Made by a program: the position numbers and the translations under genes
DNA from: Mytilus edulis
Taxonomy: Eukaryota
Assembly: GCF_963676685.1 (NCBI RefSeq)
Contig: NC_092346.1
Span: 99,820,001 to 99,884,000 of the forward strand
Direction: 5' to 3'
Length of the DNA stretch: 64,000 bases
Notes under the pieces: generated by a model
What the model saw: only the letters and a program-made list of their open reading frames with translations
Database searches by the model: none
What the model was told of the DNA's origin: nothing
In this document: positions 64 to 50,039 of the stretch, piece after piece
How positions within the stretch are numbered: position 1 is the first letter of the stretch
Layout of the letters: each line of letters starts with the position of its first letter

Positions 64-10562
<10,499 letters not shown>

Positions 10563-14385: not shown

Positions 14386-15196
14386 TAATTATTATAAATA
14401 AGAGACGTATTGTGCAAAGCATTGTAAGCATGCCAATAGGTTATTGACATGCGTAATTTACAGAAAGAACATTTTAGTTTCTTTGGTCAGCTGTTAATCT
14501 TTGACATGCGTCACCGCCCATTAATATTACAAACCATATATAGCAACGCCATACTCATTAACACATGAAATGCAACGAAAGCGATTCCATTCTTTAGCCG
14601 TGAACTCGTTAGTTGTTGTTTAATGCAATTTCTTTTTGTTTCTTGGTATTAGCTGCTGATGGCACATCTTTAAAATTCTCTACTTATTCTTATTTTTTCA
14701 CCAATTCTCAGATTCGGGCGAATATTATAAATATGTACCCTTTCTCGATTTTGCAAATTTGGGAATAATTAAGCAAAAAACGGTTCATTATTTCAATCCT
14801 CCTCATGGGCATATACTGGCGTTTAAAATTTAAGAAATATAGAGTAAACTTGAAGACGTTAATTATTATCTGAAGCCTAACACTTACAACACAACACAGA
14901 ATAGCAACACATCAAAAGCAAATAAAAAAGAAATGTAAATAAACTGGGACTTCGTTCATCACATAATCATCGCGACATTAGTTAAATAGTTTTAAAAAAA
15001 AACCACATTTTTAGACCTTATGAAAGAAAAGCACTAATTTTATTAATTTTTTTTTATTGAACGGCTAATATCATACAAACAATCATTGTAGTGGTATGGT
15101 GAACTTAACAATGGCTTTAAAATTTAAGGCTATACAAAATAAGTTCATTTCAATCTTCACATCAGTATCTCCCGTCTTTTTCCTTCTCATCTAATC

Positions 15197-15500
15197 TGCT
15201 GATACTGAGAAGGTAGGTTCCATCTATGTAAATCATCTGTTCTGCTGATACTGGGAAGGTATGTTCTAACCATGTAAATCATCTGTCATTCTGTTGATAC
15301 TGAGAAGGTAGGCTCTTTCCATGTAAATCATCTGTCATTCTGTTGATACTGCGAAGGTAAAATGTTCTAACCATGTAAATCATCTGTCATTCAGTTGATA
15401 CTGTGAAGGTAGGTTCCATCCATGTATATCAACTGTCACGTACACCGCTGATAATGGGAAAGAATGTTCCCTCCATCAAAACCAAGTAGAAGAACGCTGA
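15197..15500. repeat. 49-bp minisatellite in the predicted 3' UTR of six-Cys membrane gene copy 1
   Basis: About 5 full units of ctgttgatactgagaaggtaggttc..ccatgtaaatcatctgtcatt between the stop (15658) and AATAAA on the minus strand (15053-15058). Confidence 0.85.
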
Positions 15501-15657: not shown

Positions 15658-17504
15658 TTAAACAACGAAATATGGTGGCGAATGATGATTTACACTTTTT
15701 ACGGGAATGGTAGCATGTTGTTTCGCTGGTCTCACTTGTATTTTCTTGTGTTTTATCTCTACAATAAACATGTTGTATGTAAGAACAATATGATATAAAG
15801 AATGAAAATCTTACCACTTAAAAAATATGATTTGTAATGTCAAATAATATACAATTTGGGGGAAGAGGGGGGGAGTGTAGATAAATATTAATGTATTAAA
15901 GTTAACACATTTTGAATTTCTGTTACAAGATGAACCTCCCTTTCAGCATGACTTATTCGAAGCACTGTTATGTCCATTAACCGCTCGCGGTTTGATAGCT
16001 TGGTGAAATTTCTGACAGTTAACTAAAAGTGTGACAAATCCTTTACAAAAGCCTTGTTGTCATTATACGTTGCAAACAGTTTTAAAACTGTATGTTCATG
16101 GTTAAAATGCATATATTAGTGCATGTACTCGTTAGTTACAATATTATTTTGTTTTCTATAAGGTTCCGTTTCTCACTGGGAACTGCCAATAAAGAATATG
16201 TTTGTATGGAATAAAGTCAATACAATAATTGTCGTATGAATCACTTATGTAGATTAAGTATTGTTTTCGTCGAAAATAAACAGCTTTCATTTTATTACAT
16301 TCGTAGAAACAAGTTTTAATAAACGATAAACAATTGAAACTTACCTGTACATTTGGAATAGACGACACAAACAACTGCAAGTAAAATTCCAAGTCCCACA
16401 GATGCCAATATCACCAATACTATCATACCACTGAAATACAAAAACACAGATAATTCGATGCCTTACCTTTTCCATATTTCAATGACCTTATATATTGAAG
16501 AAGGCGTTGGATAAACGCCAATAAAGCAGAAACCACATAATAGGTGCCCATACGAATAACTAAAACAAATTGAAAAAATGTCCATTATAGTAAGAATTAT
16601 CTCAAACATTAGAACATCCATCCTTTAATCCCATATATAAAACACACGCAAAATAGGTGCGACATTTAGTAGAAAAAAAATCACTATCTGTTGTTTTTGC
16701 TGTAGAAATTAACCTGTATTCTTTACATGATGTATAAAGTCAAGAGTCTTACACTTTGAACAGAGACAAGAAGTGCTCGATTAAAAACGTCGACAACTTT
16801 TGAAATGATTTATTACAATTTACCTACTTAATTGATACACATAGAGATGTTCCTGTGCAATAAAGACCCTCCAAACAACACCATGTGCCACCTGTACATT
16901 GATGATAGGTTGCTGGACATTCCTCTTGTGTAGCTGAAAATAAAAATATTATCGATTTTAAAATCGGAAAAAGTAAATTTCTACTCAACTATCGCGTTAG
17001 AGTCGACTTTCTGAAGAAATATTTATATTTATTAAGAATTATGAAATATTAAAAATATCAAATTATCAACTAAAAGCAATTAAACCAACACTGTGTGTAC
17101 CTAATTTATAGTTCATTGGACGTTTTGTTATATGATAAAAAAAAAACAAATAAGAAGGAAAATCTCTTGTATAAAATATAGGTTTCCTCCTATAAATAAA
17201 GGCAACAACAGTATACCGTTGTTCGAAATTCATAAATCGATTGAGAAAAAAACAAATCCTATACACTGTTCGACTCATTCATTACGGGAGAGAAAAATTA
17301 AACCAAGGATCCAAATAACTAATCAATTGTTGACAGCAAAATTAATTCAAATATTGCAGTCCACATGTAATGTTCTAAAGTAGAAAGTGCACCTGAGCAA
17401 AACAGAATTAAACATAGTATATTAGATAACTTACATTGACAAGATACTTCTAATATTACACTGAAGATTGTTAAAAGAAATACGTAAACATATGTAACAT
17501 CCAT
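15658..17504 (-). CDS. Small single-pass type I membrane protein with six-cysteine ectodomain, copy 1 (120 aa)
   Basis: Exons 17504-17435, 16933-16828, 16430-16345, 15758-15658 (70+106+86+101=363 nt, all GT-AG). MDVTYVYVFLLTIFSVILEVSCQSTQEECPATYHQCTGGTWCCLEGLYCTGTSLCVSINGMIVLVILASVGLGILLAVVCVVYSKCTEIKHKKIQVRPAKQHATIPVKSVNHHSPPYFVV*. Exon sizes are identical in all three copies while the introns diverge. Confidence 0.9.
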
Positions 17505-17556
17505 GCCTCTTATTAAAGATATATTTCGGAAATGCTTACATATGATTATATTTTAT

Positions 17557-17564
17557 CTTTTATA
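17557..17564 (-). promoter_or_regulatory. TATA box of six-Cys gene copy 1
   Basis: TATAAAAG on the minus strand ~55 bp upstream of the ATG; conserved at 24721-24728 and 31939-31946. Confidence 0.65.
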
Positions 17565-18623
17565 CCTTTTGCCGATCTTTTTTCAGATTCAGTTGAATTT
17601 ATCAAATACACGGAAATGATATTGTTCCCAATTAGTCGTCTTAAATTTCAGTTAATTTAAATAAAGCAAATTTAAAGTTTGCGTAATCAAGCGTATTGTT
17701 ATATCCGTATATATGAACTTGCTTGATGGAGTGGAAAATACAACGTAATCATTCAAGGGCATTACGATTAATTCCAGTAATGTATGTATAAATAGAATCA
17801 TTTGGAAACCGTCAATCATTTTAATTCAGAGGATTTCATTCATGATTTCGTGAAGAGAATACGTCACTACCACACGGCGTGTTACTGGAACTATAGGTAC
17901 GCTCATGGGAATTATTAAGACAATGTTTTAATGAAGTTTGTATGCTAGCTACCTCAACACAAGGAGTTTTTTATGATAATTTGAACACTTTTCGTGATGA
18001 AGTAAGATGAATAATAAATCGTCTTCAGATCAGTTGTGTGAATTTGAAACTTGTTGAAAAAGAAAACAACGATACGTATTAAGTAAGAGATATTTGAATT
18101 ACAAGTAATCTTAATATAATTTAATCCTGGTATCTATGATAAGTTTATTTCATTGCACTTGTTGAAATTATCAGAATAACATCTTTAAAATAAAGCTTAC
18201 AATAAATTCATTAGAAATGCAAAAGTAACAAAATAAGAGAAAAGAAATGAAAAGTATAACAAAATATTGGAACTAAGCTTTGATGAAAACCTTTACGTTC
18301 AGTTTTATGTATCATTTTAAACTTAAATTAATGACATACACATATTTGTTAGTTATACATTTGAAGCAGCATCTGAGATCATCAAATTATTTTATGTGTT
18401 TTTTTTAACTTATGTGTATAGACTAAGCAGACTGTTTTCTTTTCGTCATTTCCTTTTGCTCAGAGTTTTTTTGTTTTTTTTTCGATTCATTCTCTCTGTG
18501 GCAGATTTTTAACCTTTTTTTTTTAAGTTATGTATGTCCATTTGCATTCCATTTAGCCTTTAAAAAACAAGTGATCCTTTTTTAACTGGAATTATCTATC
18601 TCACAAAATCTAGTATGACACTA

Positions 18624-19246
18624 ACGTAAGGGTACCCAAATTGCACCGAGTACCCAAATTGCACCTATTTAGAAACAATAGCAACGGAAATCTTACAACA
18701 TTTCCTAGAGACTAAACAATTTGTATTTTTTTGATTTTGATACTATGCACGTCTTTCAACATAGGTAAACATATTTAGATATACACAAAACGTTCACAGT
18801 ATTTATCAACAGATGGACTGTTCACTGAAAAAGCAAAATGTTCGAAAACGTCACCGTACGACGTCAACAAAACGTCATCTTTTTTAAAATTAGCAAAAAC
18901 AATATATTATAAGCATCTATTTTGTAAAATATGAAGAGTAAGCATGGACTTATATCCAATTGTTCAAAATATTTGAAGAAATTAAACAAAAGCTCGGTTA
19001 TTAGAATTTTGACGATGTGAATTTAAACATGGATGCAATTTAGGTACTCCTCATAACAGAATCCTGGATAGTTTGGAGGTTGATTCAAACCCATTTTTTT
19101 ATGGACTCAATATGGATTAAAAATCAAACTAGTGTACCTATACAATGAAGAAGGATAGGGCTACAGTATGGACATATTTTACTTGATCATAACAAAACGT
19201 AGGTGAAGAAACTGTCAAAATAGGTGCAATTTGGGTATCGTCACGT
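18624..19246. mobile_element. MITE with TA target duplication, upstream of copy 1
   Basis: TIR acgtaagggtacccaaattgcacc / ggtgcaatttgggtatcgtcacgt flanked by TA. The paralogous empty site is visible near 26650 and 33850. Confidence 0.85.
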
Positions 19247-19344
19247 TAGGCCCAATACTTTAAATTAAATTCAACGATGATTATTTTCAAACATGCTATA
19301 GCTACTGTCCGATATTGATATCTCTAAAGAATAATATTATAAAA

Positions 19345-19855
19345 AAAGAAGATGTGGTATGATTGCCAATGAGACAACTATCCACAAAAGACCAAAATGA
19401 CACAGACATTAACAACCATAGGTCACCGTACGGCCTTCAACAATGAGAAAGCCAATACCGCATAGTCAGATATAAAAGGTCCCGATAAGACAATGTAAAA
19501 CAATTCAAACGAGAAAACTAACGGTCTTATTTATGTAAAAAATAAATGAACGAAAAACAAATATGTAACACATAAACAAACGACAACCACTGAATTACAG
19601 GCTCCTGACTTGGGACAGGCACATACATAAATATTGTGGCGGGATTAAACATGTTAGCGGGATCCCAACCCTTCCCCTAACCTGGGACAGTGGTATAACA
19701 GTACAACATAAGAACGAACTATAAAAATCAGTTGAAAAAGGCTTACCTCATCAGATGGACAAAAATACAAGTGGACGTGGCCCGGTACTTATACATCCCG
19801 ACACAAAAAGACACAATGAACAACTAATAAAAAAATCATGCATCTAAGACTAAAT
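19345..19855 (+). repeat. Abundant interspersed repeat (aagaagatgtggtatgattgccaatgagacaact family)
   Basis: Related segments at 20390-20835, 38606-38740 and 50040-50835, and reversed at ~9940-10060, 14040-14385 and 61240-61450. Confidence 0.8.
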
Positions 19856-22485
19856 CTTACTTTTATATATATCTGCGAACATTCTTTGATACTATGTTAT
19901 TATGTATTTCCACTATTCTGAATTTTTTTGCATATGATATCGAACAGTTATTACACTGATGAGACTGGTACTGTTTAGTCGAAGTCTTTTAATTGTAAGA
20001 GTTATCTCCCAGAACACCTTTCATTGTGGTGAGATCTCTTCCGTAACCGTAAAAGAAAACGAAAAATTCATTTTACCAAATTGCTCTTTATTTCCTCAGG
20101 AATTTTGCTTCAATTTTGACTGAAGCAATACGAAGACTCCATATGAGAGTTATTTCCCCGTATGCATTTGAAATATGTGATATGCATTTAAAACTGATAA
20201 ACCATAAGTGATAGAGATCTAGGGTCTTTTGATTTAAAGTCCTTCGTCCAAACAATAGAAAACTAGGTCAAAGTCAAAGATCAAGGTCATATTCTAATTT
20301 TCTAATTTTTTACTTTTCCTTGTTCTTTGTCCTTTGATCTCATTTGTCACTGTTATAGATATATATAAAAGAACTAGTGCAAATTTTTTTAAAACCAGGT
20401 TCAATCAACCATTTTCTACATCAGATAACCGTACAGCTTTCAATAATGAGAAAAAAAAACGTACTGTATGGCTGACTATAAAAGGCCCCGACATGAAAAA
20501 TATGAAACGATTCAATTGAGGAAACTAACGGCCTAACACTTTACGAAACACAAATAAGAGATGAACCAACGGCAACCACTGTACTACTATTGGCTCCTGA
20601 CTTAGAACAGTCACATACCAAATGTAATGGGGTCTAACATGTTTGTCAGCGCACAACCCTCCCCTTTCCTTTGACAGTGGTGAAACAGTACAGCATAAGA
20701 ACTAACTATAAATATCAGTTGAAAAAGACATATCTCATCAGGTGGATACAAATGAAAATACATCTATATTAAAAATAAAAAGAGTAAATGTGGACGGGTA
20801 CTTAACCATCCCACAATAAAAGTACAATAAGAACAGGTCATATACCATCATCGTTCCCCCTAGGCCTATTAGTCTTTGTTAAATTTGTACTTTTTCAAAA
20901 GGAATTTGCAGAATTTATCTTCATTCTAAATAAGGAAATACTTTGCACGGGTAAATTTTTATCCTGTCCAGCACTAGACAAAAGTTCACATACCAATTCA
21001 TTGCATATAAGATAATAACCATCACTGGAAGTTAACCAATCAAATATTCACTAGTTCTTTTTCCACTTTGACACGTTTTAGTACATGTAACCATGTAACC
21101 TCAAATTTCCAAAATGTTCTATATAAACACAAAATGAAATAAGAATGATGCTTTACAATACCCAGTATGTATGATTATGAAGTGTAAAATATATTTTCTA
21201 CAACAGTCAAATTCAAGGTAATATTTTTATTTGACCCTTTTTTTATGCAACCAGATGTGACCTTCTATGATTTGGTGGTATACACATAAATAAGACTTTG
21301 TTTGTTGAATAACCTGAGTGATTTGTTTTTCATTTAAAATGCTGGTTATTTCACTGTAAAATTTTGTCATAATCTGTTCAATAGTTTAATGAAATCTAGT
21401 ATATTGTAAGACGACATCTTCAGAGATTCGGGCAAATGTGTTCGAATATGTTGTTACAATTTTTTTATTGATAGGTTTTATTTAGAATGAGTTATACTGC
21501 AACTAGTTGTGTTTATTTCCTAAATATAGTAACAACTATATTCTGCGCAATGTCAACTTCATCATGGATCATTTTCTCCACAATTATCAAGGGATGAAAA
21601 TAAATATAATATTTGTGTTTCGATTTAAAAAAAAAATAAAATCCATGTATCAAATTAAGTCGCAGTATAAAAACAATAGTATGTCAATTGGTAAAACGCC
21701 CTTCCCCAGTTTCTTAGCCTCATACAAAAGAGTTTATATTTTTCTAACATTGACCTAGTATTGTATATGAAGATATAGTACAACATAACTTAAGTAGGAG
21801 AAAAAGAACTTAAAGAAAGCAAAACACAAATAGAAAAGAAAAACAATAAAAAAAATATTTCTATGGACTACAGACACAAATGGTAAGTTAACCCAAGTGC
21901 TTCGGATGAATAATGAAGCAGTTCCATTATATGATAAAAACAAGGCAAAAATAAATCGGAAGGTTACCAAGATTGTTTGGATCAATATGCAGTTCCGATA
22001 TACTCGCCAATTATATTATATGATAAAGTGTATAAACATGGCAAAATCCTAATGCCGTATCACACTCGGCCGATATCATCTATTGGGTCTAAAGGCCCTC
22101 GGGCTGATATTGGTATCTCGGGATGGTACGGCATGTGATACGGACTTTGCCATGTATTATTATCTGTGTATCACATGTCAAGGGCAGATAAATACGACGT
22201 ATAGCAACCTCAGACGAAATTCAACATCAGCATTAATTCGACATCATCATCAGTTGAGTAGTTTAATAGCAAACACATTTAAGGCCTAATGAAAAAAGCG
22301 CTAGTTTTGTTATATTTTTTTATTACACATCTAATATTATCAGAAGAGTAATTGTAGTGTGTAGATGAACTTAACACCGGATTGTCCTATCAAATTTAAG
22401 ACAAAACAAACTTAGTTCATCTTAACCTTTTACATCGCAGACATCGATTCTGGTGCTCTCGTCCTTTTCTCTTACTTTAACTGTA

Positions 22486-22800
22486 CTGATGATTCTGGGA
22501 AGGTATGTTCCATCCATGTATAAAATCAACTGTCACACCACTGATACTTATAAAGTATGTTCGATTCATGTAAATTAACTGTCACGCCGCCGATACAGGG
22601 AAGGTATGTTTTATACATGTACAGTAACTGTCACACCGCTGATACTTATAAAGTATGTTCGATTCATGTAAATTAACTGTCACACCACTGATACTGGGAA
22701 GGTATGTTTCATACATGTACATCAACTGTCACACCGCTGATACTTATAAGGTATGTTCGATTCATGTAAATTAACTGTCACGCCGCCGATACAGGGACGG
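22486..22800. repeat. 49-bp minisatellite in the predicted 3' UTR of copy 2 (6 full units, alternating A/B types)
   Basis: Units ctgatacttataaagtatgttcgattcatgtaaattaactgtcac.. alternate with ..gggaaggtatgttt..; only 3 full units remain at 29860-30030. Confidence 0.85.
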
Positions 22801-23020
22801 TTTGTTAATTAACTGCTTATTGTATACAGATGATACGTCAATCGTTGGTATACCCGAATATGTTACCCTAGTAACGCAAGTATTTATGTTATTTGTACAT
22901 TAATTCTTTGTTTTCCTACGATTTATATCTATCCATCTCACATTCACTGTGATTATATCTTTCCATCTCACATTCACTGTGATTATGCATAGTTTTGAAT
23001 AAAAGAAGGAATATATCACG

Positions 23021-24668
23021 CTAAACAATGTAATATGGTGGTGAATGATGATTTCCACTTTTTACGGGAATGGTAGCATGTTGTTTTGCTGGTCTCACTT
23101 GAATTGTCTTGTGTTGTATCTCTACAATTGAAAGGAATCTTGTTTTGAAATGGAATCATTGTTGTTATATTCTAAATTATTCAATGTTATTTTTTTTTTA
23201 GTTGATGAAAGGAAAAATGCTTTACATAAAAAAAATGTTTTGTAATGACAACTTATATACAATTGAAAGCGATTGGTAATTATTAAAACAACAAGATGTT
23301 CTAAGTAAAAACATTTCATATTTCTTTGAAAAGATATATTCCCTTTTAATTTCTAGAGGACATTGTATTTCAATCTTCTGACGCATGAAAGCACTGTTAT
23401 TCAGTTTACAGTGATCGCACTGTGATACCTTAAACACTTCTTTCAGATAACAAAAGTGTGACAATTCATTTATAAAATCTCGTTATCATAATATTTTTAA
23501 AGGTTTTTATAACAGGATACTGATGGAAAAATTGCACATAGCAGTACATACAAAAAAAACGGCTGTGTAAAAATATCAATTTGGTTGTTTAGGAACTGTT
23601 CTTTCATCATTGTTTATCTGTGGTTTACCATTAGAATTAAACGTAGATATTAATATTTGCCGTGTTACATATCTCACTCGAATACAGACAGTTACAAAAA
23701 ATAAATATTAATATGTACGGAAGTCATTATAATAACTGGCTACGTTTTTTACTCGTATACAGCCAGTAAAGAAAATTTTTTACGAAATAAAGATAGTGTA
23801 ATAACTGCCTGTATGATTAATTGACGCAGATAATGTATTTTGTCACAAAAGATACAGAGTGTTGATTTTATCACATTTGTAGAAACTAGATTCAACGATA
23901 AGCAATTTACACCTACCTGTACATTTTGAATAAACAACACAAACAACGGCAAGTAAAATTCCAAGTCCTACAGAAGACAATATCACCAATACTATCATAC
24001 CACTGAAATACAAAAAAACATCATTCAATGCTTTACATACTTCAATTATCAAATATTGATAATATATGACCCAACAGTAACCTTCTGCCATTTTGAAGCT
24101 CTTGGTCGGTTCGCTGTCACCTCGACACATTCCCCATTTACATTATCAATTTCGAAAGAATGCGTGGGGTATACGCCAAAAAAGAAAAGAAAAAAAAGAA
24201 AACTAAACAAACAATCTTACTTATTGAACATAGAGACGAAATGCATGACGGTTCGATAAAGAAAATCAACATTTTTTGAGATTATTAATTACAATTTACT
24301 TACTTAATTGATAAACATAGAGATGTTCCAGTGCAATAAAGACCTTCTGGACAACACCATGTGCCACCTGTACATTGATGATAGGTTGCTGGACATTCCT
24401 CTTGTGGAGCTAAAGTAAAAAATATTGCCGATGTTAAAATCAGGAAAAACTATTGCTTTAAAATTAATCATTTTAGCTTACAAAAATGATGAGAAAAAAC
24501 TAAAATAAACTGAGTTTACCTTTGGTCCAAAGGACATCCGATAATTGTTATTGAAAAATAAAAAAAAATGAATTAAACATATTATATAGATTACTTACCT
24601 TGACAAGATACTTCTAATATTACATTGAAAAAAGTTAAAAGAAATACGTAAACATATGTAACATCCAT
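23021..24668 (-). CDS. Small single-pass membrane protein with six-cysteine ectodomain, copy 2 (120 aa)
   Basis: Exons 24668-24599, 24409-24304, 24002-23917, 23121-23021. MDVTYVYVFLLTFFNVILEVSCQAPQEECPATYHQCTGGTWCCPEGLYCTGTSLCLSINGMIVLVILSSVGLGILLAVVCVVYSKCTEIQHKTIQVRPAKQHATIPVKSGNHHSPPYYIV*. Confidence 0.9.
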
Positions 24669-25519
24669 GTCTCTTATTGAAGTTATTTTTCGTAAATGCT
24701 TACATATTATTATATTTGTTCTTTTATAGCAATTGCCGATGATTTTTTCAGATTCAGTAGAATTTATCAAATACACGGAAATAATATTGTTCTCAATCAG
24801 CCTTTTAAATTTCAGTTAATTCAAACAAAGCTATTTAAATTTTGCGTAATCAAGCATATATTGTAAATATCCGTATATATGAACTTGCTTCAAGGAGTGG
24901 AAAAAACAACGTAACCATTCAAGGGCATTCAATTAATTCCAGTAATAAAGATATAAATAGAAATATTTGGAAACCGTCAATCATTTTATTTCAGAGGATT
25001 TCATTCATTATATCCTGTAAAGAATACAACACCACGACCTGACGTGTTACTGGAACTACATCTCTACTAATGGGACTGCTCAGGATAATATTATGACGTG
25101 TTACTGGAACTACATCTCTACTAATGGGACCGCTCATGATAATATTATGAAATTTGCATGCTTCTTCAACAAAAGGAGCTATTTATATAATTATAAATAA
25201 GTTTTTTATTCTCCGAGATGTAGCAAAATGATTTTTAAATCGTCACCAGATCGGTTGCATTTGGAAACTTGTTGAAAGAAAACAAAGATACTTTTGTGGT
25301 TTTATATATGATCTTCCGCAGTTATGATACTTAACTCGAGATATTTAATTTAACCTAGATGGCATTTAATAACACTTGCTGAAATTATCAAAACACATAT
25401 TATTAATTATATTTAATCTTAATTTTAAGTTCTCTTATAGAGAAATGAGATTGACGGAGCCCCTGAGGTTAGCCTTGATTTGTATGAAGCTCAAATTAAT
25501 TAAGCTTTTGTGTATTAAT

Positions 25520-26090
25520 TTTACTTTCTTTTCTTTCCCTCATTTTTTTTTTGGTTGGAATTTGGTTGTTTTTCGACTCTTTACTTTAATGGTTTTCTGG
25601 ACTGTTTTTATTTTATCTTTTTCTTTATTTTTGTTTTCCAACTTATTGTTTTGCTGGACTGTTTGTTTTTATTTTATCTTTTTCCTTATTTTTGTGTTCA
25701 AACTTATTGTTTTGATGGACTATTTTTTTTCTTTTTGGTCATGATTTTCTTTCAATTTTTTTTTTTATTCAAGGTTTATTTTGTTTTTCTTTTCTATTTG
25801 GTCAGGGTATTGTTTGTTATTCTTTCCATTGTTTTTACTTTTGGACAGGGTATTGTTTGTTTAAAATATTCATTGTGTCCCCCTTTTGGTCAGGGTTTTG
25901 TTTATTTTTCTATCCATTGTTTTAACTTTTGGCCGAGGTTTTGTTTGGTTTTTCTATTCATTGTTCTCTTTTTGATCATGTTTTTTTCCATTGATTTCTT
26001 TTGGTCAGAGTTTAAATTTTTGCTATCCTTTGTTTTCCTTCTGGTCAGTGTATTGTATATTTATCCATTGCACTTTTTTGTTGTTTTATA
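25520..26090. repeat. T-rich degenerate ~40-bp tandem tract (also 32700-33280)
   Basis: Recurring ttggtcagggt(a/t)ttgttt...tccattg in a very T-rich stretch; absent upstream of copy 1. Confidence 0.7.
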
Positions 26091-26979
26091 ATGACCACTC
26101 TCTTGAGTCATATCGCTAAGTCATATGTCTTGTGTTGTATTTTATGGACAGTTTCAATGCCTATTTTATTTTTGCCTTTGGGTTAAGTACCAATGATGTT
26201 TGTTTCTGTTGTACATTTATAGTTTGTATCCCCCTTTTAACAATGTGACGTTTGATTCTTGATTCTTGTTTATTTTTACTGCTATTTTAATACAATACGA
26301 TAAGGCAGAACGACATTTGATAGAAATTCAAACTGTTTAGTTGCTATTTAAAATTTAAAAGCGAAATTTTCATTATCATTGTCCATGATACTTGCGCACA
26401 CTCTTCTTCAGAACTCTTGACTAAGATAATCGTATCATAGAATTGTTTCGATTCAATTAGAATGATACAAAATATTCAAATAATTGGGAATTTTATAGTT
26501 TTTTGTTGTTTGATATCTTTTTCCTAGTAAAATGTCATTCTGACATGGTCTTATCACAATCTTAGCTCAAAGTAGCTTGTAAATCGTTATTCTTAAAAAG
26601 ACCAATTGATTATTTAATAACCGGAAATTTCAACCTCACACAATCTAGTAAGACACTATAAACAATTCTTAAAAATTAAATTAAACGATGTTTATTCTTA
26701 AACATGTCATTAATACTGTCCGATATGTATCTCTCTAGAACAAAACATATTTAACTGTAGATTAATCCGATTTGAAATTATGTGCCAACTGTGTATTTCC
26801 TGATACAGCGATTTAATATTTCCATGTATGTTAAATAAAGGTCTTCATAAAAATCAATATAATATGGTTGGTTAGGCATTCCTATATATATATTATTCCA
26901 TATATGCCAAGTTTAAATTGGACTTATTCCAACATTCAAAAAGCCGCATATGACGCAGGTTTTTGACTGCAAATCTGGC

Positions 26980-26993
26980 ATAATTATAATAAA

Positions 26994-27072
<79 letters not shown>
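26980..27072. repeat. (AAT)n microsatellite
   Basis: Long AAT run; the equivalent position in unit B is the N gap. Confidence 0.95.
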
Positions 27073-27077
<5 letters not shown>

Positions 27078-27203
27078 GAGTATTAATAATAAAAATAAGA
27101 TATTAATAATAATATTAACTATAATTATAAAAGTAAAAATAAAACACCATAATTTGATGATAATTTGATTGTTGCCAATTTGACAACAGAAAATCGACAT
27201 TCA

Positions 27204-27941
27204 TTTTTAGCTCACCTGGCCAGAAGGGCCAAGTGAGCTTTTCTCATCACTTGGCGTCCGTCGTTCGTCGTCGTCTGTCGTCGGTAACTTTTACAAAAAT
27301 CTTCTCCTCTGAAACTACTGGGCAAAATTTAACCAAACTTGACCACAATCATAATTGGGATATTTAGTATAAAACAAATGTCCAGTCACCTGGCCAAACA
27401 ACCAAGATGACCACCATGGCTAAAAATAGAACATAGGGGTAAAATGTAGAGTTTGTCTTATATCTCTTTAACCAAAGTATTTAGAGCAAATCTGACGGAG
27501 TTAAATTGTTGATAAGGTCAAGATCTATCTGTCCTGACATTCTCAGATGAATCGGACAACCCGTTGTTAGGTTGCTGTCGCTGAATTGGTAATTTTAAGG
27601 AAAGTTTGCCGTTTTTGGTTATTATCTTGAATATTATCATAGATAGAGATAATCTGTAAACAGGAATAATGTTCCGCAAAGTAAGATCTACAAATAAGTT
27701 ACAAGACCGAAATGGTCAATTGACCCCTTAAGGAGTTTTTGTCATTTATAGTAAATTGTTTACAATTTTCATAAATTTTGTAAATTTTTACAAAATACTC
27801 CACTGTTACTGGGCCGAGTTCATTATAGATAGAGATAATTGTAAGCAACAAGAATATTAAGTAAAGTAAGACCTACAAACACATCACCGTAACCAAAACA
27901 CAATTTTGTCATGAGTCCACCAGTGTCCTCTGTTTAATATG
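27204..27941 (+). mobile_element. HINE/Helentron-like non-autonomous element, truncated at the duplication junction
   Basis: Starts tttttagctcacctggcc..ggccaagtgagc, then a cgtc microsatellite-like tract; the fuller copy is at 34503-35447. Confidence 0.65.
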
Positions 27942-28184
27942 AGGCCACATTCACTTTTGACAAAAACCATCTAAAAAGTGACGTTTTTTGGCATATATGA
28001 TAGATTTTTCATATTTAAGCTTGAATCAGAGCGTTTTTAATGACTAAATCAGTTCAAATCTTTCACATAAACTAATCGAATCAATTGAAATAGACACTTA
28101 AGTGTTTAAAAAGTGTCCAAAAACTTTCGTTAGATGAACCTGAAATTTGAGGCCAAAATCGGCCCTAACCGGACCTTCTCCTTT
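27942..28184 (-). mobile_element. Terminal fragment of the MITE family at 38775-39360, sitting at the duplication junction
   Basis: Reverse complement of ~38775-39020, ending in the TIR ccggacct(t)ctccttt. Confidence 0.85.
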
Positions 28185-30235
28185 GTACTTTTTCAAAAGG
28201 AATTTGCAGAATTTATCTTCATTCTAAATAAGGAAATACTTTGCACGGGTACATTTTTATCCTGTCCAGCACTAGACAAAATTTCACATACCAATTCATT
28301 GCATATAAGATAATAACCATCACTGGAAGTTAACCAATCAAATATTCACTAGTTCTTTTTCCACTTTGACACGTTTTAGTAAATGTAACCATGTAACCTC
28401 AAATTTCCAAAATGTTGTATATAAACAAGTACATGTAATCATGGAACCTCAAATATCCAAAATGTTCTATATAAACACCAAATGAAATAAGAATGATGCT
28501 TTAAAATACCCAGTATGTATGATTATGACTAAATGTTTTTTTTTCTGCAATGAAGTGTAAAATAAATTTCCTACAACAGTCAAATTCAAGGTAATATTTT
28601 TATTTGACCCTTTTTTATATGCAACCAGATGTGACCTTCTATGATTTGGTGGTACTACACATAAATAAGACTTTGTTTGTTGAATAACCTGAGTGATTTG
28701 TTTGTCATTTAAAATGCTGGTTATTTCACTGTAAAATTTTGTCATAATCTGTTCAGTAGTTTAATAAAATCTAGTATATTGTAAGACGACATCATCAGAG
28801 ATTCGGGCAAATGTTTTCGAATAATTTGTTACTATTTTTTTTTATTGATAGGTTTTATTTAGAATGAGTTATACTGCAACTAGTTGTGTTTATTTCCTAA
28901 ATATAGTAACAACTATATTCTGCGCAATTTCAACTTCATCATGGATCATTTTCACCACAATTATCAAGGGATAAAAATAAATATAATATTTGTGTTTCGA
29001 TTTAAAAAAAAATTCCATGTATCAAATTAAGTTGCAGTATAAAAACAATAGTATGTCAATTGGTAAAACGCCCTTCCCCAGTTTCTCAGCCTCATACAAA
29101 AGAGTTTATATTTTTCTAACATTGACCTAGTATTGTATATGAAGATATAGTACAACATAACTAAAGTAGGAGAAAAAGAACTTAAAGAAAACAAAACACA
29201 ATTAGAAAAGAAATACAATAAACAAAATATTTCTATGGACTACAGACACAAATGGTAAATTAACCCAAGTGCTTCGGATGAATAATGAAGCAGTTCCATT
29301 ATATGATAAAAACACAAGGCAAAAATAAATCGGAAGATTACAAAGATTGTTTGGATCAATATGCAGTTCCGATATACTCGCCAATTATATTATATGATAA
29401 AGTGTATAAACATGGCAAAATCCTAATGCCGTATCACACTCGGCCGATATCATCTATTGGGTCTAAAGGCCCTCGGGCTGATATTGGTATCTCGGGATGG
29501 TACGGCATGTGATACGGACTTTGCCATGTATTATTATCTGTGTATCACATGTCAAGGGCAGATAAATACGACGTATAGCAACCTCAGACGAAATTCAACA
29601 TCAGCATTAATACGACATCATCATCAGTTGAGTAGTTTAATAGCAAACACATTTAAGGCCTAATGAAAAAAGCGCTAGTTTTGTTATATTTTTTTATTAC
29701 ACATCTAATATTATCAGAAGAGTAATTGTAGTGTGTAGATGAACTTAACACCGGATTGTCCTATCAAATTTAAGACAAAACAAATTTAGTTCATCTTAAC
29801 CTTTTACATCGCAGACATCGATTCTGGTGCTCTCGTCCTTTTCTCTTACTTTAACTGTACTGATGATTCTGGGAAGGTATGTTCCATCCATGTATAAAAT
29901 CAACTGTCACACCACTGATACTGGGAAGGTATGTTTCGTACATGTACATCAACTGTCACACCGCTGATACTTATAAAGTATGTTCGATTCATGTAAATTA
30001 ACTGTCACGCCGCCGATACAGGGACGGTATGTTAATTAACTGCTTATTTTATACAGCTGATACGTCAATCGTTGGTATACCCGAATATGTTACCCTAGTA
30101 ACGCAAGTATTCATGTTATTTGTTGTTTTCCTACGATTTATATCTATCCATCTCACATTCACTGTGAGTATATCTTTCCATCTCACATTCACTGTGATTA
30201 TGCATAGTTTTTAATAAAAGAAGGAATATATCACG

Positions 30236-31886
30236 CTAAACAATGTAATATGGTGGTGAATGATTATTTCCACTTTTTACGGGAATGGTAGCATGTTGTT
30301 TTGCTGGTCTCACTTGAATTGTCTTGTGTTGTATCTCTACAATTGAAAGAAATCTTGTTTTTGAAATAGAATCATTGTTGTTATATTCTAAATTATTCAA
30401 TGTTATTTTTTTTTAGTTGATGAAAGGAAACATGTATTACATAAAAATATATGTTTTGTAATGACAACTTATATACTATTGAAAGCGATTGGTAATTATT
30501 AAAACAACAAGATGTTCTAAGTAAAAACATTTCATATTTCTTTGAAAAGATATATCCCCTTTTAATTTCTAGAGGACATTGTATTTCAATCTTCTGACGC
30601 ATGAAAGCACTGTTATTCAGTTTACAGTGATCGCACTGTGATACCTTAAACACTTCTTTCAGATAACAAAAGTGTGACAATTCATTTATAAAATCTCGTT
30701 ATCATAATATTTTTAAAGGTTTTTATAACAGGATACTGATGGAGAAATTGCACATAGCAGTACATACAAAAAAAAACGGCTGTGTAAAAATATTAATTTA
30801 GTTGTTTAGGAACTGTTCTTTCATCATTGTTTATCTGCCGTTTACCATTAGAATTAAACGTAAATATTAATATTGGCCGTGTTACATATCTCACTCGAAT
30901 ACAGACAGTAACAAAAAATAAATATTGATATGTAAGGAAGTCATTATAATAACTGGCTACGTTTTTTACTCGTATACAGCCAGTAAAGAAAATTTTTTAC
31001 GAAATAAAGATAGTGTAATAACTGCCTGTATGATTAATTGACGCAGATAATGTATTTTGTCACAAAAGATACAGAGTGTTGATTTTATCACATTTGTAGA
31101 AACTAGATTCAACGATAAGCAATTTACACCTACCTGTACATTTTGAATAAACAACACAAACAACGGCAAGTAAAATTCCAAGTCCTACAGAAGACAATAT
31201 CACCAATACTATCATACCACTGAAATACAAAAAAACATCATTCAATGCTTTACATACTTCAATTATCAAATATTGATAATATATGACCCAACAGTAACCT
31301 TCTGCCATTTTGAAGCTCTTGGTCGGTTCGCTGTCACCTCGACACATTCCCCATTTACATTATCAATTTTGAAAGAATGCGTGGGGTATACGCCAAAAAA
31401 GAAAAGAAAAAAAAAGAAAACTAAACAAACAATCTTACTTATTGAACATAGAGACGAAATGCATGACGGTTCGATAAAGAAAATCAACATTTTTTGAGAT
31501 TATTAATTACAATTTACTTACTTAATTGATAAACATAGAGATGTTCCAGTGCAATAAAGACCTTCTGGACAACACCATGTGCCACCTGTACATTGATGAT
31601 AGGTTGCTGGACATTCCTCTTGTGGAGCTAAAGTAAAAAATATTGCCGATGTTAAAATCAGGAAAAACTATTGCTTTAAAATTAATCATTTTAGCTTACA
31701 AAAATGATGAGAAAAAACTAAAAAAAACTGAGTTTACCTTTGGTCCAAAGGACATCCGATAATTGTTATTGAAAAATAAAAAAAAATGAATTAAACATAT
31801 TATATAGATTACGTACCTTGACAAGATACTTCTAATATTACATTGAAAAAAGTTAAAAGAAATACGTAAACATATGTAACATCCAT
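30236..31886 (-). CDS. Small single-pass membrane protein with six-cysteine ectodomain, copy 3 (120 aa)
   Basis: Exons 31886-31817, 31627-31522, 31219-31134, 30336-30236. Same protein as copy 2 except GNNHSPPYYIV (His to Asn). Confidence 0.88.
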
Positions 31887-34168
31887 GTCTCTTATTGAAG
31901 TTTTTTTTCGTAAATGCTTACATATTATTATATTTGTTCTTTTATAGCAATTGCCGATGATTTTTTTCAGATTCAGTAGAATTTATCAAATACACGGAAA
32001 TAATATTGTTCTCAATCAGCCTTTTAAATTTCAGTTAATTCAAACAAAGCTATTTAAATTTTGCGTAATCAAGCATATATTGTAAATATCCGTATATATG
32101 AACTTGCTTCAAGGAGTGGAAAAAACAACGTAACCATTCAAGGGCATTCAATTAATTCCAGTAATAAAGATATAAATAGAAATATTTGGAAACCGTCAAT
32201 CATTTTATTTCAGAGGATTTCATTCATTATGTCCTGTAAAGAATACAACACCACGACATGACGTGTTACTGGAACTACATCTCTACTAATGGGACTGCTC
32301 AGGATAATATTATGACGTGTTACTGGAACTACATCTCTACTAATGGGACTGCTCAGGATAATATTATGAACTTTGCATGCTTCTTCAACAAAAGGAGCTA
32401 TTTATATAATTATAAATAAGTTTTTTATTCTCCGAGATGCAGCAAAATGATTTTTAAATCGTCACCAGATCGGTTGCATTTGGAAACTTGTTTAAAGAAA
32501 ACAAAGATACTTTTTGTGGTTTTATATATGATCTTCCGCAGTTATGATACTTAACTCGAGATATTTAATTTAACCTAGATGGCATTTAATAACACTTGCT
32601 GAAATTATCAAAACACATATTATTAATTATATTTAATCGGAGCCCCTGAGGTTAGCCTTGGTTTGTATGAAGCTCAAATTAATTAAGCTTTTGTGTATTA
32701 ATTTTACTTTCTTTTCTTTCCGTCATTTTTTTTTTTTTTGGTTTGAATCTGGTTGTTTTTCGACTCTTTACTTTGATGGTTTTCTGGACTGTTTTTATTT
32801 TATCTTTTTCTTTTTTTTTGTTTTCCAACTTATTGTTTTGCTGGACTGTTTGTTTTTATTTTATCTTTTTCCTTATTTTTGTGTTCAAACTTATTGTTTT
32901 GATGGACTATTTTTTTTCTTTTTGGTCATGATTTTCTTTCAATTTCTTTTTTTTATTCAAGGTTTATTTTGTATTTCTTTTCTATTTGGTCAGGGTATTG
33001 TTTGTTATTCTTTCCATTGTTTTTACTTTTGGTCAGGGTATTGTTTGTTTAAAATATTCATTGTGTCCCCCTTTTGGTCAGGGTTTTGTTAATTTTTCTA
33101 TCCATTGTTTTAACTTTTGGCCGAGGTTTTGTTTGGTTTTTCCATTCATTGTTTTCTTTTTGATCATGTTTTTTTCCATTGATTTCTTTTGGTCAGAGTT
33201 TGAATTTTTGCTATCCTTTGTTTTCCTTCTGGTCAGTGTATTGTATATTTATCCATTGCACTTTTTCGTTGTTTTATAATGACCACCCCCTTGAGTCATA
33301 TCGCTAAGTCATATGTCTTGTGTTGTATTTTATGGACAGTTTCAATGCCTATTTTATTTTTACCTTTGTACCAATGATGTTTGTTTCTGTTGTACATTTA
33401 TTTCTGTTGTACATTTATATTTTATATCCCCCTTTTAACAATGTGACGTTTGATTCTTGATTCTTGTTTATTTTTACTGCTATTTTAATACAATCCGATA
33501 AGACAGAACGACATTTGATAGAAATTCAAACTGTTTAGTTGCTATTTAAAATTTAAAAGCGAAATTTTCATTATCATTGTCCATGATACTTGCGCACACT
33601 CTTCTTCAGAACTCTTGACTAAGATAATCGTATCATAGAATTGTTTCGATTCAATTAGAATGATACAAAATATTCAAATAATTGGGAATTTTATAGTTTT
33701 TTGTTGTTTGATATCTTTTTCCTAGTAAAATGTCATTCTGACATGGTCTTATCACAATCTTAGCTCAAAGTAGCTTGTAAATCGTTATTCATAAAAAGAC
33801 CAATTGATTATTTAATAACCGGAAATTTCAACCTCACACAATCTAGTAAGACACTATAAACAATTCTTAAAAATTAAATTAAACGATGTTTATTCTTAAA
33901 CATGTCATCAATACTGTCCGATATGTATCTCTCTAGAACAAAACATATTTAACTGTAGATTAATCCCATTTGAAATTATGTGCCAACTGTGTATTTCCTG
34001 ATACAGCGATTTAATATTTCCATATATGTTAAATAAAGGTCTTCATAAAAATCAATATAATATGGTTGGTTAGGCATTCCTATATATATATTATTCCATA
34101 TATGCCAAGTTTAAATTGGACTTATTCCAACATTCAAAAAGCCACACATGACGCAGGTTTTTGACTGC

Positions 34169-34395
34169 NNNNNNNNNNNNNNNNNNNNNNNNNNNNNNNN
34201 NNNNNNNNNNNNNNNNNNNNNNNNNNNNNNNNNNNNNNNNNNNNNNNNNNNNNNNNNNNNNNNNNNNNNNNNNNNNNNNNNNNNNNNNNNNNNNNNNNNN
34301 NNNNNNNNNNNNNNNNNNNNNNNNNNNNNNNNNNNNNNNNNNNNNNNNNNNNNNNNNNNNNNNNNNNNNNNNNNNNNNNNNNNNNNNNNNNNNNN
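34169..34395. other. Assembly gap (227 N) over the (AAT)n tract of unit B
   Basis: Run of N; the flanks match those of the AAT tract in unit A. Confidence 0.99.
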
Positions 34396-34502
34396 AAGAT
34401 ATTAATAATAATATTAACTATAATTATAAAAGTAAAAATAAAACACCATAATTTGATGATAATTTGATTGTTGCCAATTTGACAACAGAAAATCGACATT
34501 CA

Positions 34503-35447
34503 TTTTTAGCTCACCTGGCCAGAAGGGCCAAGTGAGCTTTTCTCATCACTTGGCGTCCGTTGTTCGTCGTCGTCTGTCGTCGGTAACTTTTACAAAAATC
34601 TTCTCCTCTGAAACTACTGGGCAAAATTTAACCAAACTTGACCACAATCATAATTGGGATATTTAGTATAAAACAAATGTCCAGTCACCTGGCCAAACAA
34701 CCAAGATGGCCACCATGGCTTAAAATAGAACATAGGGGTAAAATGTAGAGTTTGTCTTATATCTCTTTAACCAAAGTATTTAGAGCAAATCTGATGGAGT
34801 TAAATTGTTGATAAGGTCAAGATCTATCTGTCCTGACAACCCGTTGTTAGGTTGCTGTCGCTGAATTGGTAATTTTAAGGAAAGTTTGCCGTTTTTGGTT
34901 ATTATCTTGAATATTATCATAAATAGAGATAATCTGTAAACAAGAATAATGTTCCGCAAAGTAAGATCTACAAATAAGTTACAAGACCGAAATGGTCAAT
35001 TGACCCCTTAAGGAGTTTTGGTCATTTATAGTAAATTGTTTACCATTTTCATAAATTTTGTAAATTTTTACAAAATACTCCACTGTTACTGGGCCGAGTT
35101 CATTATAGATAGAGATAATTGTAAGCAGCAATAATATTAAGTAAAGTAAGACCTACAAACACATCACCGTCACCAAAACACAATTTTGTCATGAGTCCAC
35201 CAGTGTCCTCTGTTTAATATGCATATAGACCTAAAGAGGGACGAAAGATACCAGAGGGACAGTCAAACTCATAAATCGAAAACAAACTGACAACGCCATG
35301 GCTAGAAATGAAAAAGACAAATAGAAAAACAATAGTACACATGACACAACATAGAAAACTAAAGAATAAACAACACGAACCCCACCAAAAACTAAGGTGT
35401 TCCGGTTACCAAGGTGAGCAACACAGGCTCTTTAGAGCCTCCAGTTT
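34503..35447 (+). mobile_element. HINE/Helentron-like element with a nested repeat at ~35231-35407
   Basis: 5' tttttagctcacctgg; 3' subterminal inverted copy ccaaggtgagc, then hairpin aggctctttagagcct and ttt. Confidence 0.7.
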
Positions 35448-47369: not shown

Positions 47370-47934
47370 TGTTCTTTAAAATTACTAAAATTCAGTAACT
47401 ATATATAAAAAAAAAAAAAAGATTTATCAGGACGACAACGGTTTTCGTAGCTTTAAAAAAATCAACGTAAACGCTAATTGACACATCTGATAATATTGTT
47501 ATTATGAAATAAAACAGCAAGTTGTTTTTGCTTTTAATCGTATAAGCCCTTTTTTGAAATATTTAACTCGTGATATATGTTTTGAAGAAAATTGTGCTTT
47601 AAGCACTCGAATGTTACGTTCGGCAAATCACTACCGGTCAAATCATTAACATATTCAGTTGAAAGGCTCCGCTTGCTACAAAGATTACGACTTAGTACAT
47701 TAAAGATTGGCAGATCTTTGCAAGATAGTTTCAGATGTATGAGAATGCACGTGATTGCAGTTAAGGAAATGATTGTACAATTATTCTGAAAGATATGACA
47801 GTTGTTTTCCATTCGTCCAACGTTTAATTTTGTCAGTTTTTATGAACCCCCTTTCCATGCTTTCTGATTTACGAGTTTTATATTTTTTATACTTTCTTAT
47901 GTACATACATAAATGATTAAAACCGTCAAAATCA

Positions 47935-49540: not shown

Positions 49541-50039
49541 AGATATAGAATTATATAATTATTTCTTTTACATTTAATAAATTATTAGTATACTATGAGG
49601 TGTGCAGTCCAATAAAGGGACCAGAGTAACAGACAATGGGTCATTTTATGTATTTTTTTTTAATACAAATTGCTTACTTTATTTACGTTTATATTTTATA
49701 TCAATCAATTAAATCAAAATCAATCATATTATGTACTTTGTTTAACCTATTTTTAATTTACTTTACATTATGTTTGAAAATTATGTTGTTATTATTCTGC
49801 TCATTTTGAGCGCCATGATTGGCAAATAAAATATTTGGTTGTTTGTTTGTTTGTGTGTTTGTTGATTATAATCATATTACATAACCAGTTGCTACTAATA
49901 AAACATAATATTCCGAATTAAGCTTTCAGATTTTAAGTTGATGCAAAATAAACGTGAAGTTGGATGTGTCTTTTCAAAGAGGCATTACTCCATAATCACT
50001 CCAAAATATCACACAAATCATGAATAATATATTTAACTA

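What the first reader, a model, noticed from the sequence alone, without database searches (positions are those of the whole stretch)
15658..31886. Triplicated 120-aa membrane-tethered six-cysteine mini-protein that the ORF track never shows whole
Seen: four short exons encode a signal peptide (likely cut at VSC|Q), a ~37-aa ectodomain C-x6-C-x5-CC-x5-C-x5-C, a TM helix with juxtamembrane Cys, and a basic tail ending SPPYFVV or SPPYYIV, with one module per exon. Established: C-C-CC-C-C is the inhibitor-cystine-knot order; CCPxGxxCx5C matches the C-terminal half of granulin repeats; hydrophobic-x-hydrophobic-COOH is a class II PDZ ligand (compare ephrin-B YYKV). The layout recalls Shisa-like/CYYR1/VOPP1 adaptors, but their Cys pattern ends in CC. 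Inference: a natural tethered-toxin-like channel/receptor modulator or small immune adaptor. I cannot assign it to a named family.
Basis: partly seen in the sequence, partly recalled or inferred. Interest (0 to 1): 0.72.

Follow-up and report, generated by a model that had tools for sequence, protein, structure and literature searches.

The report
Bivalve membrane-tethered mini-granulin adaptor family
Three neighbouring mussel gene copies encode a 120-residue membrane protein of an unnamed bivalve family whose small outer domain is predicted to fold like a short granulin and whose inner tail likely recruits ubiquitin ligases that would send partner receptors for destruction, so it is probably a trafficking adaptor rather than a tethered toxin.

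Summary
The genes are real. Three minus-strand four-exon copies give 120-aa proteins; RNA-type contigs join all three introns of the B/C type, and copies A and B equal existing RefSeq Mytilus edulis models (uncharacterized) at 120/120. B and C are 98.4% identical and may be haplotypes of one gene. The copies belong to an unnamed family of mussels, oysters and scallop (about 20 related exons on this chromosome) that comes in six- and eight-cysteine forms. The predicted ectodomain matches only granulin AaE and a granulin-like conotoxin, both weakly (Z 2.2, 2.0); a knot is not excluded. It is acidic and the most conserved part, unlike diversifying toxins. Best reading: a CYYR1/WBP1L-like (STMC6-like) adaptor for NEDD4-family ligases, with a different cysteine pattern, so it works like STMC6 without passing the membership test. 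Copy A has lost the PPxY tyrosine. Partner and function untested. New variant of a known kind; interest 0.4.

The parts
17435..17504 (-). Copy A exon 1: start codon and predicted signal peptide
   Evidence: spliced product equals P0050 (XP_071160666.1) 120/120; no junction contig seen
16828..16933 (-). Copy A exon 2: six-Cys ectodomain C-x6-C-x5-CC-x5-C-x5-C
16345..16430 (-). Copy A exon 3: transmembrane helix with two Cys at its inner end
   Evidence: hydropathy 3.16 over 21 aa
15658..15758 (-). Copy A exon 4 coding part: basic tail ending SPPYFVV (no PPxY) and stop
   Evidence: contigs cover its 3' part and UTR
24599..24668 (-). Copy B exon 1: start codon and predicted signal peptide
   Evidence: joint 24409/24599 in X1; product equals P0051 (XP_071165658.1) 120/120
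24304..24409 (-). Copy B exon 2: six-Cys ectodomain, predicted two-hairpin mini-granulin-like fold
23917..24002 (-). Copy B exon 3: transmembrane helix with juxtamembrane Cys
   Evidence: joints 24002/24304 (X1, X3) and 23121/23917 (X1)
23021..23121 (-). Copy B exon 4 coding part: basic tail ending SPPYYIV (PPxY at 23030-23041) and stop
31817..31886 (-). Copy C exon 1
31522..31627 (-). Copy C exon 2, identical to B
31134..31219 (-). Copy C exon 3, identical to B
30236..30336 (-). Copy C exon 4 coding part, one change from B (H112N), PPxY kept
20884..27941 (.). First unit of the 7-kb tandem repeat that holds copy B
28182..35221 (.). Second unit, holding copy C; 98.4% identical to the first over 6,704 aligned bases: recent duplication or second haplotype

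Best explanation
These are four-exon genes for 120-aa single-pass membrane proteins of an unnamed bivalve family, which likely act as CYYR1/WBP1L-type adaptors: the predicted mini-granulin-like outer domain and the membrane helix would hold a partner membrane protein, and the PPxY motif in the tail of copies B and C would recruit a NEDD4-family ubiquitin ligase to route that partner to endosomes and lysosomes. Shown: gene structure, splicing of the B/C type, family, PPxY enrichment. Predicted: signal peptide, fold. Inferred by analogy: palmitoylation of the juxtamembrane Cys, WW-domain binding, ligase activation, partner degradation. Copy A, with Phe in place of the PPxY Tyr, would be a weaker or ligase-blind version; both ends also read as a terminal YxxPhi sorting signal (motif recalled; not enriched in the family).
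For: Layout signal peptide / small Cys domain / TM / PY tail in 52 of 63 proteins examined for core plus TM, juxtamembrane Cys in 50 of 52. PPxY in 14 of 33 tails of 25 aa or more against a shuffled mean of 1.9, maximum 7 in 2,000; 15 of 41 against 3.2 on a larger set; the window's PPYY falls in the same alignment column as the PPxY of paralogues. Paralogues are auto-named CYYR1-like and one reaches 26.3 bits on Pfam CYYR1, cut-off 31. ESM Atlas feature neighbours are WBP-1, CYYR1, DUF2650 and Shisa clusters, 0.81-0.90 (leads only). Eight-Cys paralogues carry C*C*CC*CC as their first six Cys and share intron phases 1 and 2. CYYR1 has four small exons and binds WWP1/2 through PPxY (PMC1863428, PMC11399591; passages); WBP1L is palmitoylated and binds NEDD4-family ligases (PMC6991692; passages).
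Against: Most family tails lack PPxY (19 of 33), some have almost no tail, and copy A and the M. galloprovincialis relative end in PPYF. There is one motif only, whereas CYYR1 and WBP1L have three and loss of one barely affects CYYR1 binding. The sequences counted are related, so the shuffle test overstates independence. P0050 and P0051 have no Pfam CYYR1, Shisa or WBP-1 match at E 0.05, and the eight-Cys exon alone matches Granulin and WAP weakly, not CYYR1, so the CYYR1 score may come from the hydrophobic parts. The STMC6 Cys pattern is not met in the window. No binding or localisation was tested.
Confidence: 0.52

Rival explanations
1. Tethered toxin-like modulator: the ectodomain is a knottin or toxin-like mini-granulin that binds an ion channel or receptor in the same membrane and changes its gating, anchored by a PDZ scaffold.
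For: C-C-CC-C-C order with loops of 5-6 residues fits the ICK framework; the second fold match is conotoxin MiXXVIIA, Z 2.0; a granulin-fold conotoxin domain binds an acetylcholine-receptor surrogate (PMC10133702, passages); mussel gill expresses many nAChR subunits and Shisa-domain genes (PMC5549309, passages).
Against: Class II PDZ end in only 2 of 42 members. Mature ectodomain charge -3 and family core mean -0.3. Top fold match is a granulin. The same Cys order also gives mini-granulin folds (PMC11035057), so it does not show a knot.
Confidence: 0.14
2. Membrane-anchored growth-factor-like ligand: the granulin-like domain signals to a neighbouring cell or is shed just above the membrane, the tail only controlling its own turnover.
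For: Granulin-like sequence and fold signal; members with tails of about 10 aa keep the full ectodomain; a subfamily has a Ser/Tyr-rich stalk that would lift the domain.
Against: Only about 6 residues separate the last Cys from the TM in the window's proteins, leaving little room for a sheddase; granulin scores are all under the Pfam cut-off; PPxY is enriched.
Confidence: 0.12
3. Small immune recognition receptor or adaptor, expanded for diverse ligands as many mussel immune families are.
For: About 20 related exons in clusters on one chromosome, with broken and very young copies; expansion in several bivalve lineages.
Against: The ectodomain is the most conserved module (pairwise identity 0.48 without shared Cys, against 0.23-0.30 for the other modules; inflated because the family was collected with this domain); A against B gives 16 non-synonymous and 11 synonymous changes on 277 and 83 sites, ratio about 0.4. 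No tissue or challenge data seen.
Confidence: 0.12
4. Copy C (separate question: copy number) is the second haplotype of B placed in tandem by the assembly, so there are two genes, not three.
For: 1.6% substitutions over 6.7 kb, 0 synonymous and 1 non-synonymous coding change; the database cluster lists two M. edulis proteins, equal to A and B; 13 of 21 listed differences of run X1 against B are the C state.
Against: The units are in perfect tandem with a repeat fragment at the junction, as for a young duplication; the family is prone to tandem duplication.
Confidence: 0.4

Closest known systems
STMC6 proteins: CYYR1 (PF10873), WBP1/WBP1L/VOPP1/TMEM92 (PF11669), Shisa-like (PF13908)
   Same: Short type I membrane protein, small six-Cys luminal domain, juxtamembrane Cys, PPxY tail; four small exons as in CYYR1; paralogues auto-named CYYR1-like; eight-Cys paralogues contain C*C*CC*CC.
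   Different: Window pattern is C-C-CC-C-C; no CCSYYAY box; one PPxY (none in A) instead of three; tail short and basic rather than proline-rich; no Pfam match for the window's proteins.
Granulin module (PF00396; zebrafish granulin AaE, PDB 6CKU) and paragranulin
   Same: Below-cut-off match to the C-terminal half of the profile; predicted model aligns to residues 23-56 of 6CKU (Z 2.2, rmsd 2.1 over 33); the six- and eight-Cys forms read like 2- and 3-rung versions of the granulin CC ladder (inferred).
   Different: Granulins have 12 Cys and are cut from a secreted polyprotein; here one 6- or 8-Cys module is membrane-anchored.
Mini-granulin conotoxins (MiXXVIIA PDB 6PPC, Vc7.2, TxVIIB, alphaD-VxXXB C-terminal domain) and ICK peptides of framework VI/VII
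   Same: C-C-CC-C-C order; weak fold match to MiXXVIIA (Z 2.0, rmsd 2.9 over 29).
   Different: Not secreted, no pro-region, conserved loops, longer loops (5-6) than TxVIIB (2-4); no evidence of toxicity or common descent.
MgCRP-I mussel cysteine-rich peptides (PMC4558851)
   Same: Mytilus family with a C-C-CC-C-C array.
   Different: CRP-I are secreted cationic pre-propeptides with CC(X3-4)C spacing, confined to mytilids; these have CC-x5-C, a TM helix, an acidic domain and oyster/scallop relatives.

Membership tests
STMC6 (Shisa-like/WBP1/VOPP1/TMEM92/CYYR1) | Single transmembrane helix after a short N-terminal Cys domain | tested here: met
   (hydropathy); signal peptide by eye only
STMC6 (Shisa-like/WBP1/VOPP1/TMEM92/CYYR1) | Cys pattern C*C*CC*CC (as quoted in PMC5578492 for the majority of members and PMC6991692) | tested here: not met
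   window pattern C-C-CC-C-C; eight-Cys paralogues hold C*C*CC*CC plus two more Cys; the defining paper was not held, so variant patterns it may allow were not checked
STMC6 (Shisa-like/WBP1/VOPP1/TMEM92/CYYR1) | PY ([LP]PxY) motifs in the tail | tested here: met
   copies B and C yes, copy A no; family 14 of 33 against 1.9 shuffled
STMC6 (Shisa-like/WBP1/VOPP1/TMEM92/CYYR1) | Proline-rich C-terminal region | tested here: inconclusive
   Pro+Gln 16-18% in the window's tails, 25-38% in many paralogues
STMC6 (Shisa-like/WBP1/VOPP1/TMEM92/CYYR1) | WY/WF/IW aromatic motif just outside the membrane (PMC6125347) | tested here: not met
   absent from the window's proteins in the alignment
STMC6 (Shisa-like/WBP1/VOPP1/TMEM92/CYYR1) | Profile match to PF10873, PF11669, PF13908 or PF10853 over the cut-off | tested here: not met
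   none for P0050/P0051; best paralogue 26.3 of 31 bits on PF10873
STMC6 (Shisa-like/WBP1/VOPP1/TMEM92/CYYR1) | Binding of NEDD4-family WW domains | not tested
   no complex prediction or assay run
CYYR1 | CCSYYAY box and three PPPY motifs (PMC1863428) | tested here: not met
CYYR1 | Four small exons | tested here: met
   intron phases of CYYR1 not checked
Granulin | 12-Cys motif in a secreted precursor | tested here: not met
   6 Cys plus TM; Pfam Granulin 15.1 of 20.9 bits
Granulin | Stacked beta-hairpin fold | tested here: inconclusive
   AF2 pLDDT 79, four short strands; Z 2.2 to 6CKU; eight-Cys model has no match at Z 2
Inhibitor cystine knot | C-C-CC-C-C framework | tested here: met
Inhibitor cystine knot | Knotted topology | tested here: inconclusive
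   weak granulin-type matches only; not an exclusion
Inhibitor cystine knot | Connectivity I-IV, II-V, III-VI | not testable with these tools
   no coordinates returned; AlphaFold miscalls this connectivity (PMC11035057)
MgCRP-I | C(X3-6)C(X1-7)CC(X3-4)C(X3-5)C, pro-region with KR, secreted, cationic | tested here: not met
Class II PDZ ligand | Hydrophobic-x-hydrophobic C-terminus kept across relatives | tested here: inconclusive
   present in the three copies and the close orthologues but 2 of 42 family members
LDL receptor class A | Acidic calcium-binding DxSDE motif and sixth Cys (motif recalled) | tested here: not met
   absent in the window's exon; present in the unrelated look-alikes L014/L019

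The most novel reading that the evidence does not exclude
The family is a membrane-tethered mini-granulin whose six- and eight-Cys forms are 2- and 3-rung pieces of the granulin disulfide ladder, showing that the STMC6 luminal domain is itself a half-granulin; it would grip an endogenous receptor (bivalve nicotinic receptors are a candidate) with the fold that cone snails use as a toxin, and hand it to NEDD4 ligases.
Probability: 0.12. Interest if true: 0.72.

Novelty: new variant of a known kind. Interest (0 to 1): 0.4.

Why it matters
If right, bivalves have an expanded set of ubiquitin-ligase adaptors with an ectodomain that differs from all named STMC6 patterns. The natural six/eight-Cys pair gives a small, synthesisable test of how the granulin ladder, the mini-granulin conotoxin fold and the STMC6 luminal domain relate; the A/B pair (PPYF against PPYY) is a built-in control for ligase binding. 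Without a partner or phenotype it remains a modest, already auto-annotated gene family.

Tried and rejected
Copy A junctions: none in 8 runs laid; no listed holder is on record as RNA; not evidence of silence. Foldseek on both models: nothing at E 0.001. VIA-align on the eight-Cys model: nothing at Z 2. No ICK chain appeared among the two rows at Z 2 or more for the six-Cys model; this does not exclude a knot. PDB sequence search: one LDLa domain at E 0.22; LDLa origin rejected for lack of the acidic motif. YxxPhi not enriched (14 of 33 against 13.2). Own-genome search with PF10873 gave two sub-cut-off hits and no canonical STMC6 Cys exon in 9.9 kb beside the better one. Repeat proteins P0028 and P0047 and weak hits P0100 and P0101 were dropped as spurious. 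Tree of 42 proteins on 72 columns is poorly resolved and included the trait columns; it needs 2 changes of Cys number but does not rule out 1. No complex prediction was run: a WW-PPxY pair would pass by likeness to solved structures and no ectodomain partner is known. Literature: no paper with 'cysteine and tyrosine-rich protein' plus 'Mytilus' or 'CYYR1' plus 'oyster'; listings show no description of this family; subscription journals are mostly not covered. Earlier scan notes: nothing relevant.
Full report
Observation. A six-frame scan finds C-x6-C-x5-CC-x5-C-x5-C three times and SPPY[FY][VI]V three times, all on the minus strand. The three copies, A (17504-15658), B (24668-23021) and C (31886-30236), each have exons of 70, 106, 86 and 101 nt, GT..AG introns of phase 1, 2 and 1, and a 120-aa frame without stops. 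Copy A has Leu instead of Pro after the CC.

Expression. Contigs of run X1 skip the three introns of copy B to the base, X3 skips intron 2, and X2 and the DNA-type run X19 show none of these joints among those listed. The runs are guessed to be RNA. Because the B and C exons are the same around the joints and only B was in the laid stretch, the evidence is for the B/C type. Copy A showed cover at its 3' end but no junction in the 8 runs laid; the runs had been picked with copy B. Independently, the spliced A and B products equal RefSeq Mytilus edulis XP_071160666.1 and XP_071165658.1 at 120 of 120 residues, and M. californianus and M. galloprovincialis have 120-aa orthologues 104-113 of 120 identical. 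So the models exist in databases as uncharacterized proteins; UniRef calls the M. galloprovincialis one 'Granulins domain-containing'.

Copy number. B and C sit in a 7-kb tandem unit with 106 substitutions in 6,704 aligned bases and one residue change. Of 21 differences between run X1 and copy B that I passed on (104 rows of that table were not shown), 13 are the C state. C is either a young duplicate or the other haplotype; I could not decide.

Family. Searching the own genome with exon 2 gave 27 matches, 20 on contig C3; a second search gave 26, 21 on C3, 22 distinct C3 places in all. Of 20 loci inspected, 17 hold the full Cys pattern, one is broken and two are LDL-receptor class A look-alikes. 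Three loci have an eight-Cys form, C-x5-C-x5-CC-x5-CC-x5-C-x5-C, with the same intron phases around the exon in the one read. Protein searches found 27, 13 and 26 relatives and an exhaustive profile search 32; the named ones are from Mytilus, oysters and Pecten. Word-based searches are of limited reach, so absence outside bivalves is not shown. Both Cys forms occur in mussels and oysters; a poorly resolved tree places oyster six-Cys proteins among eight-Cys ones, apart from the mussel six-Cys group, which hints at repeated loss of one pair without proving it.

Tail. PPxY occurs in 14 of 33 tails of 25 aa or more (42 of 51 proteins had core plus TM), against 1.9 in shuffled tails, maximum 7 in 2,000; on 63 proteins, 15 of 41 against 3.2. 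Relatedness inflates this, and most tails lack the motif. The window's SPPYYIV contains PPxY and aligns with the motif of paralogues; copy A's SPPYFVV does not. A class II PDZ end is found in 2 of 42 and YxxPhi is at chance level. A juxtamembrane Cys is present in 50 of 52.

Ectodomain. Pfam Granulin matches 13 of 18 exons at E up to 1, the window's at 15.1 bits against a cut-off of 20.9, on the C-terminal half of the profile. AF2 models have pLDDT 79 and 76, pTM 0.39-0.40, with four short strands. Foldseek gives nothing significant. Against 48,161 chains the six-Cys model has two matches at Z 2 or more: zebrafish granulin AaE residues 23-56 (Z 2.2, rmsd 2.1, 33 aligned) and conotoxin MiXXVIIA (Z 2.0, rmsd 2.9, 29 aligned); the eight-Cys model has none. 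These scores are weak. PMC11035057 (first three of six parts read) shows that this Cys order can give an unknotted mini-granulin fold, that AlphaFold can miscall the pairing, and that short loops of 2-4 favour mini-granulin; ours are 5-6, so a knot stays possible. My inference: the extra pair of the eight-Cys form (one Cys six places before Cys I, one directly before Cys II) fits the granulin ladder without re-pairing the other six, using I-III and II-V as in PMC7463432 (passages). The mature ectodomain has charge -3 and the Cys core is the most conserved module, 0.48 identity without shared Cys against 0.23-0.30 elsewhere, a figure biased by how the family was collected.

Mechanism. The layout and the PY signal match STMC6 adaptors: CYYR1 binds WWP1/2 through PPxY and sits on late endosomes (PMC11399591, passages); WBP1L is palmitoylated and binds NEDD4-family ligases (PMC6991692, passages); CYYR1 has four small exons (PMC1863428, passages). 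ESM Atlas neighbours are WBP-1, CYYR1, DUF2650 and Shisa clusters at 0.81-0.90, leads only. I therefore read the proteins as adaptors that would bring a NEDD4-family ligase to a partner held by the ectodomain and helix (0.52). Rivals: tethered channel modulator (0.14; a granulin-fold conotoxin domain does bind an acetylcholine-binding protein, PMC10133702, passages), anchored or shed ligand (0.12), immune receptor (0.12). None was tested by binding or assay.

Membership. It works like STMC6 but fails the quoted pattern C*C*CC*CC (PMC5578492, PMC6991692, passages), the aromatic juxtamembrane motif (PMC6125347, passages) and the Pfam cut-offs. The eight-Cys paralogues contain that pattern as their first six Cys, but their exon alone does not match PF10873, so homology is unproven. 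The defining paper by Pei and Grishin was not held; its figures and supplements may already list such variants. It is not MgCRP-I (PMC4558851, abstract and sections 16 and 20), not a full granulin (PMC4527844, passages) and not LDLa. PMC5549309 and PMC11891777 were seen as passages. No supplements were read.

Novelty and verdict. Five targeted paper searches found no description of the family (open-access library only) and the scan's earlier notes hold nothing on it. The genes are real and already modelled by automatic annotation; what is new is the recognition of an expanded bivalve family that joins a predicted mini-granulin-like domain, in six- and eight-Cys forms, to a PY tail. New variant of a known kind, interest 0.4.

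Noticed in passing
window 23043 (copy B), run X1 contig: A G>A difference turns the Ser before PPYY into Leu, which would give overlapping LPxY and PPxY motifs.
   Followed up: partly
P0049 (M. galloprovincialis VDI19203.1): N-terminal part matches copy B, tail matches copy A: a mosaic suggesting gene conversion or recombination between tandem copies.
   Followed up: no
L004/L024, G000:C3:92.80-92.81 Mb: Close paralogue (88% in exon 2) with exon 1 about 3.5 kb upstream; no TM or tail exon found by tblastn in the 4.2 kb downstream that was fetched: long intron, secreted form or fragment.
   Followed up: partly
L010, G000:C3:105.12 Mb: Broken paralogous exon with a stop and loss of the first Cys.
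   Followed up: no
P0029 (M. trossulus), P0001 (M. gigas): Database models with two Cys modules; in P0029 they are in tandem before the TM, like a short granulin chain.
   Followed up: no
L011, L013, L015; P0012, P0015, P0020, P0022, P0025: Subfamily with a Ser/Tyr-rich stalk of 15-28 aa between the Cys domain and the TM.
   Followed up: no
L014, L019, G000:C11:46.85-46.93 Mb: Two near-identical LDL-receptor class A exons whose first five Cys have the same spacing as this family's domain.
   Followed up: partly
window about 4316-7221, + strand: Exons of a receptor-type guanylate cyclase (motifs recognised from recall, no family scan run).
   Followed up: no
window 43224-43559 (-) and 56674-56895 (+): Exon resembling a SAM-dependent O-methyltransferase (motif recalled) and an inverted copy at 74% identity.
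   Followed up: no
window 40052-41614, 43440-45393, 47933-49591: A 200-bp unit repeated in both orientations, a 54-bp tandem array and a low-complexity array that give long spurious open frames.
   Followed up: no
window 15195-15438 and 22490-22806: Short tandem repeats in the probable 3' UTRs of copies A and B; contigs cover parts of these stretches.
   Followed up: no
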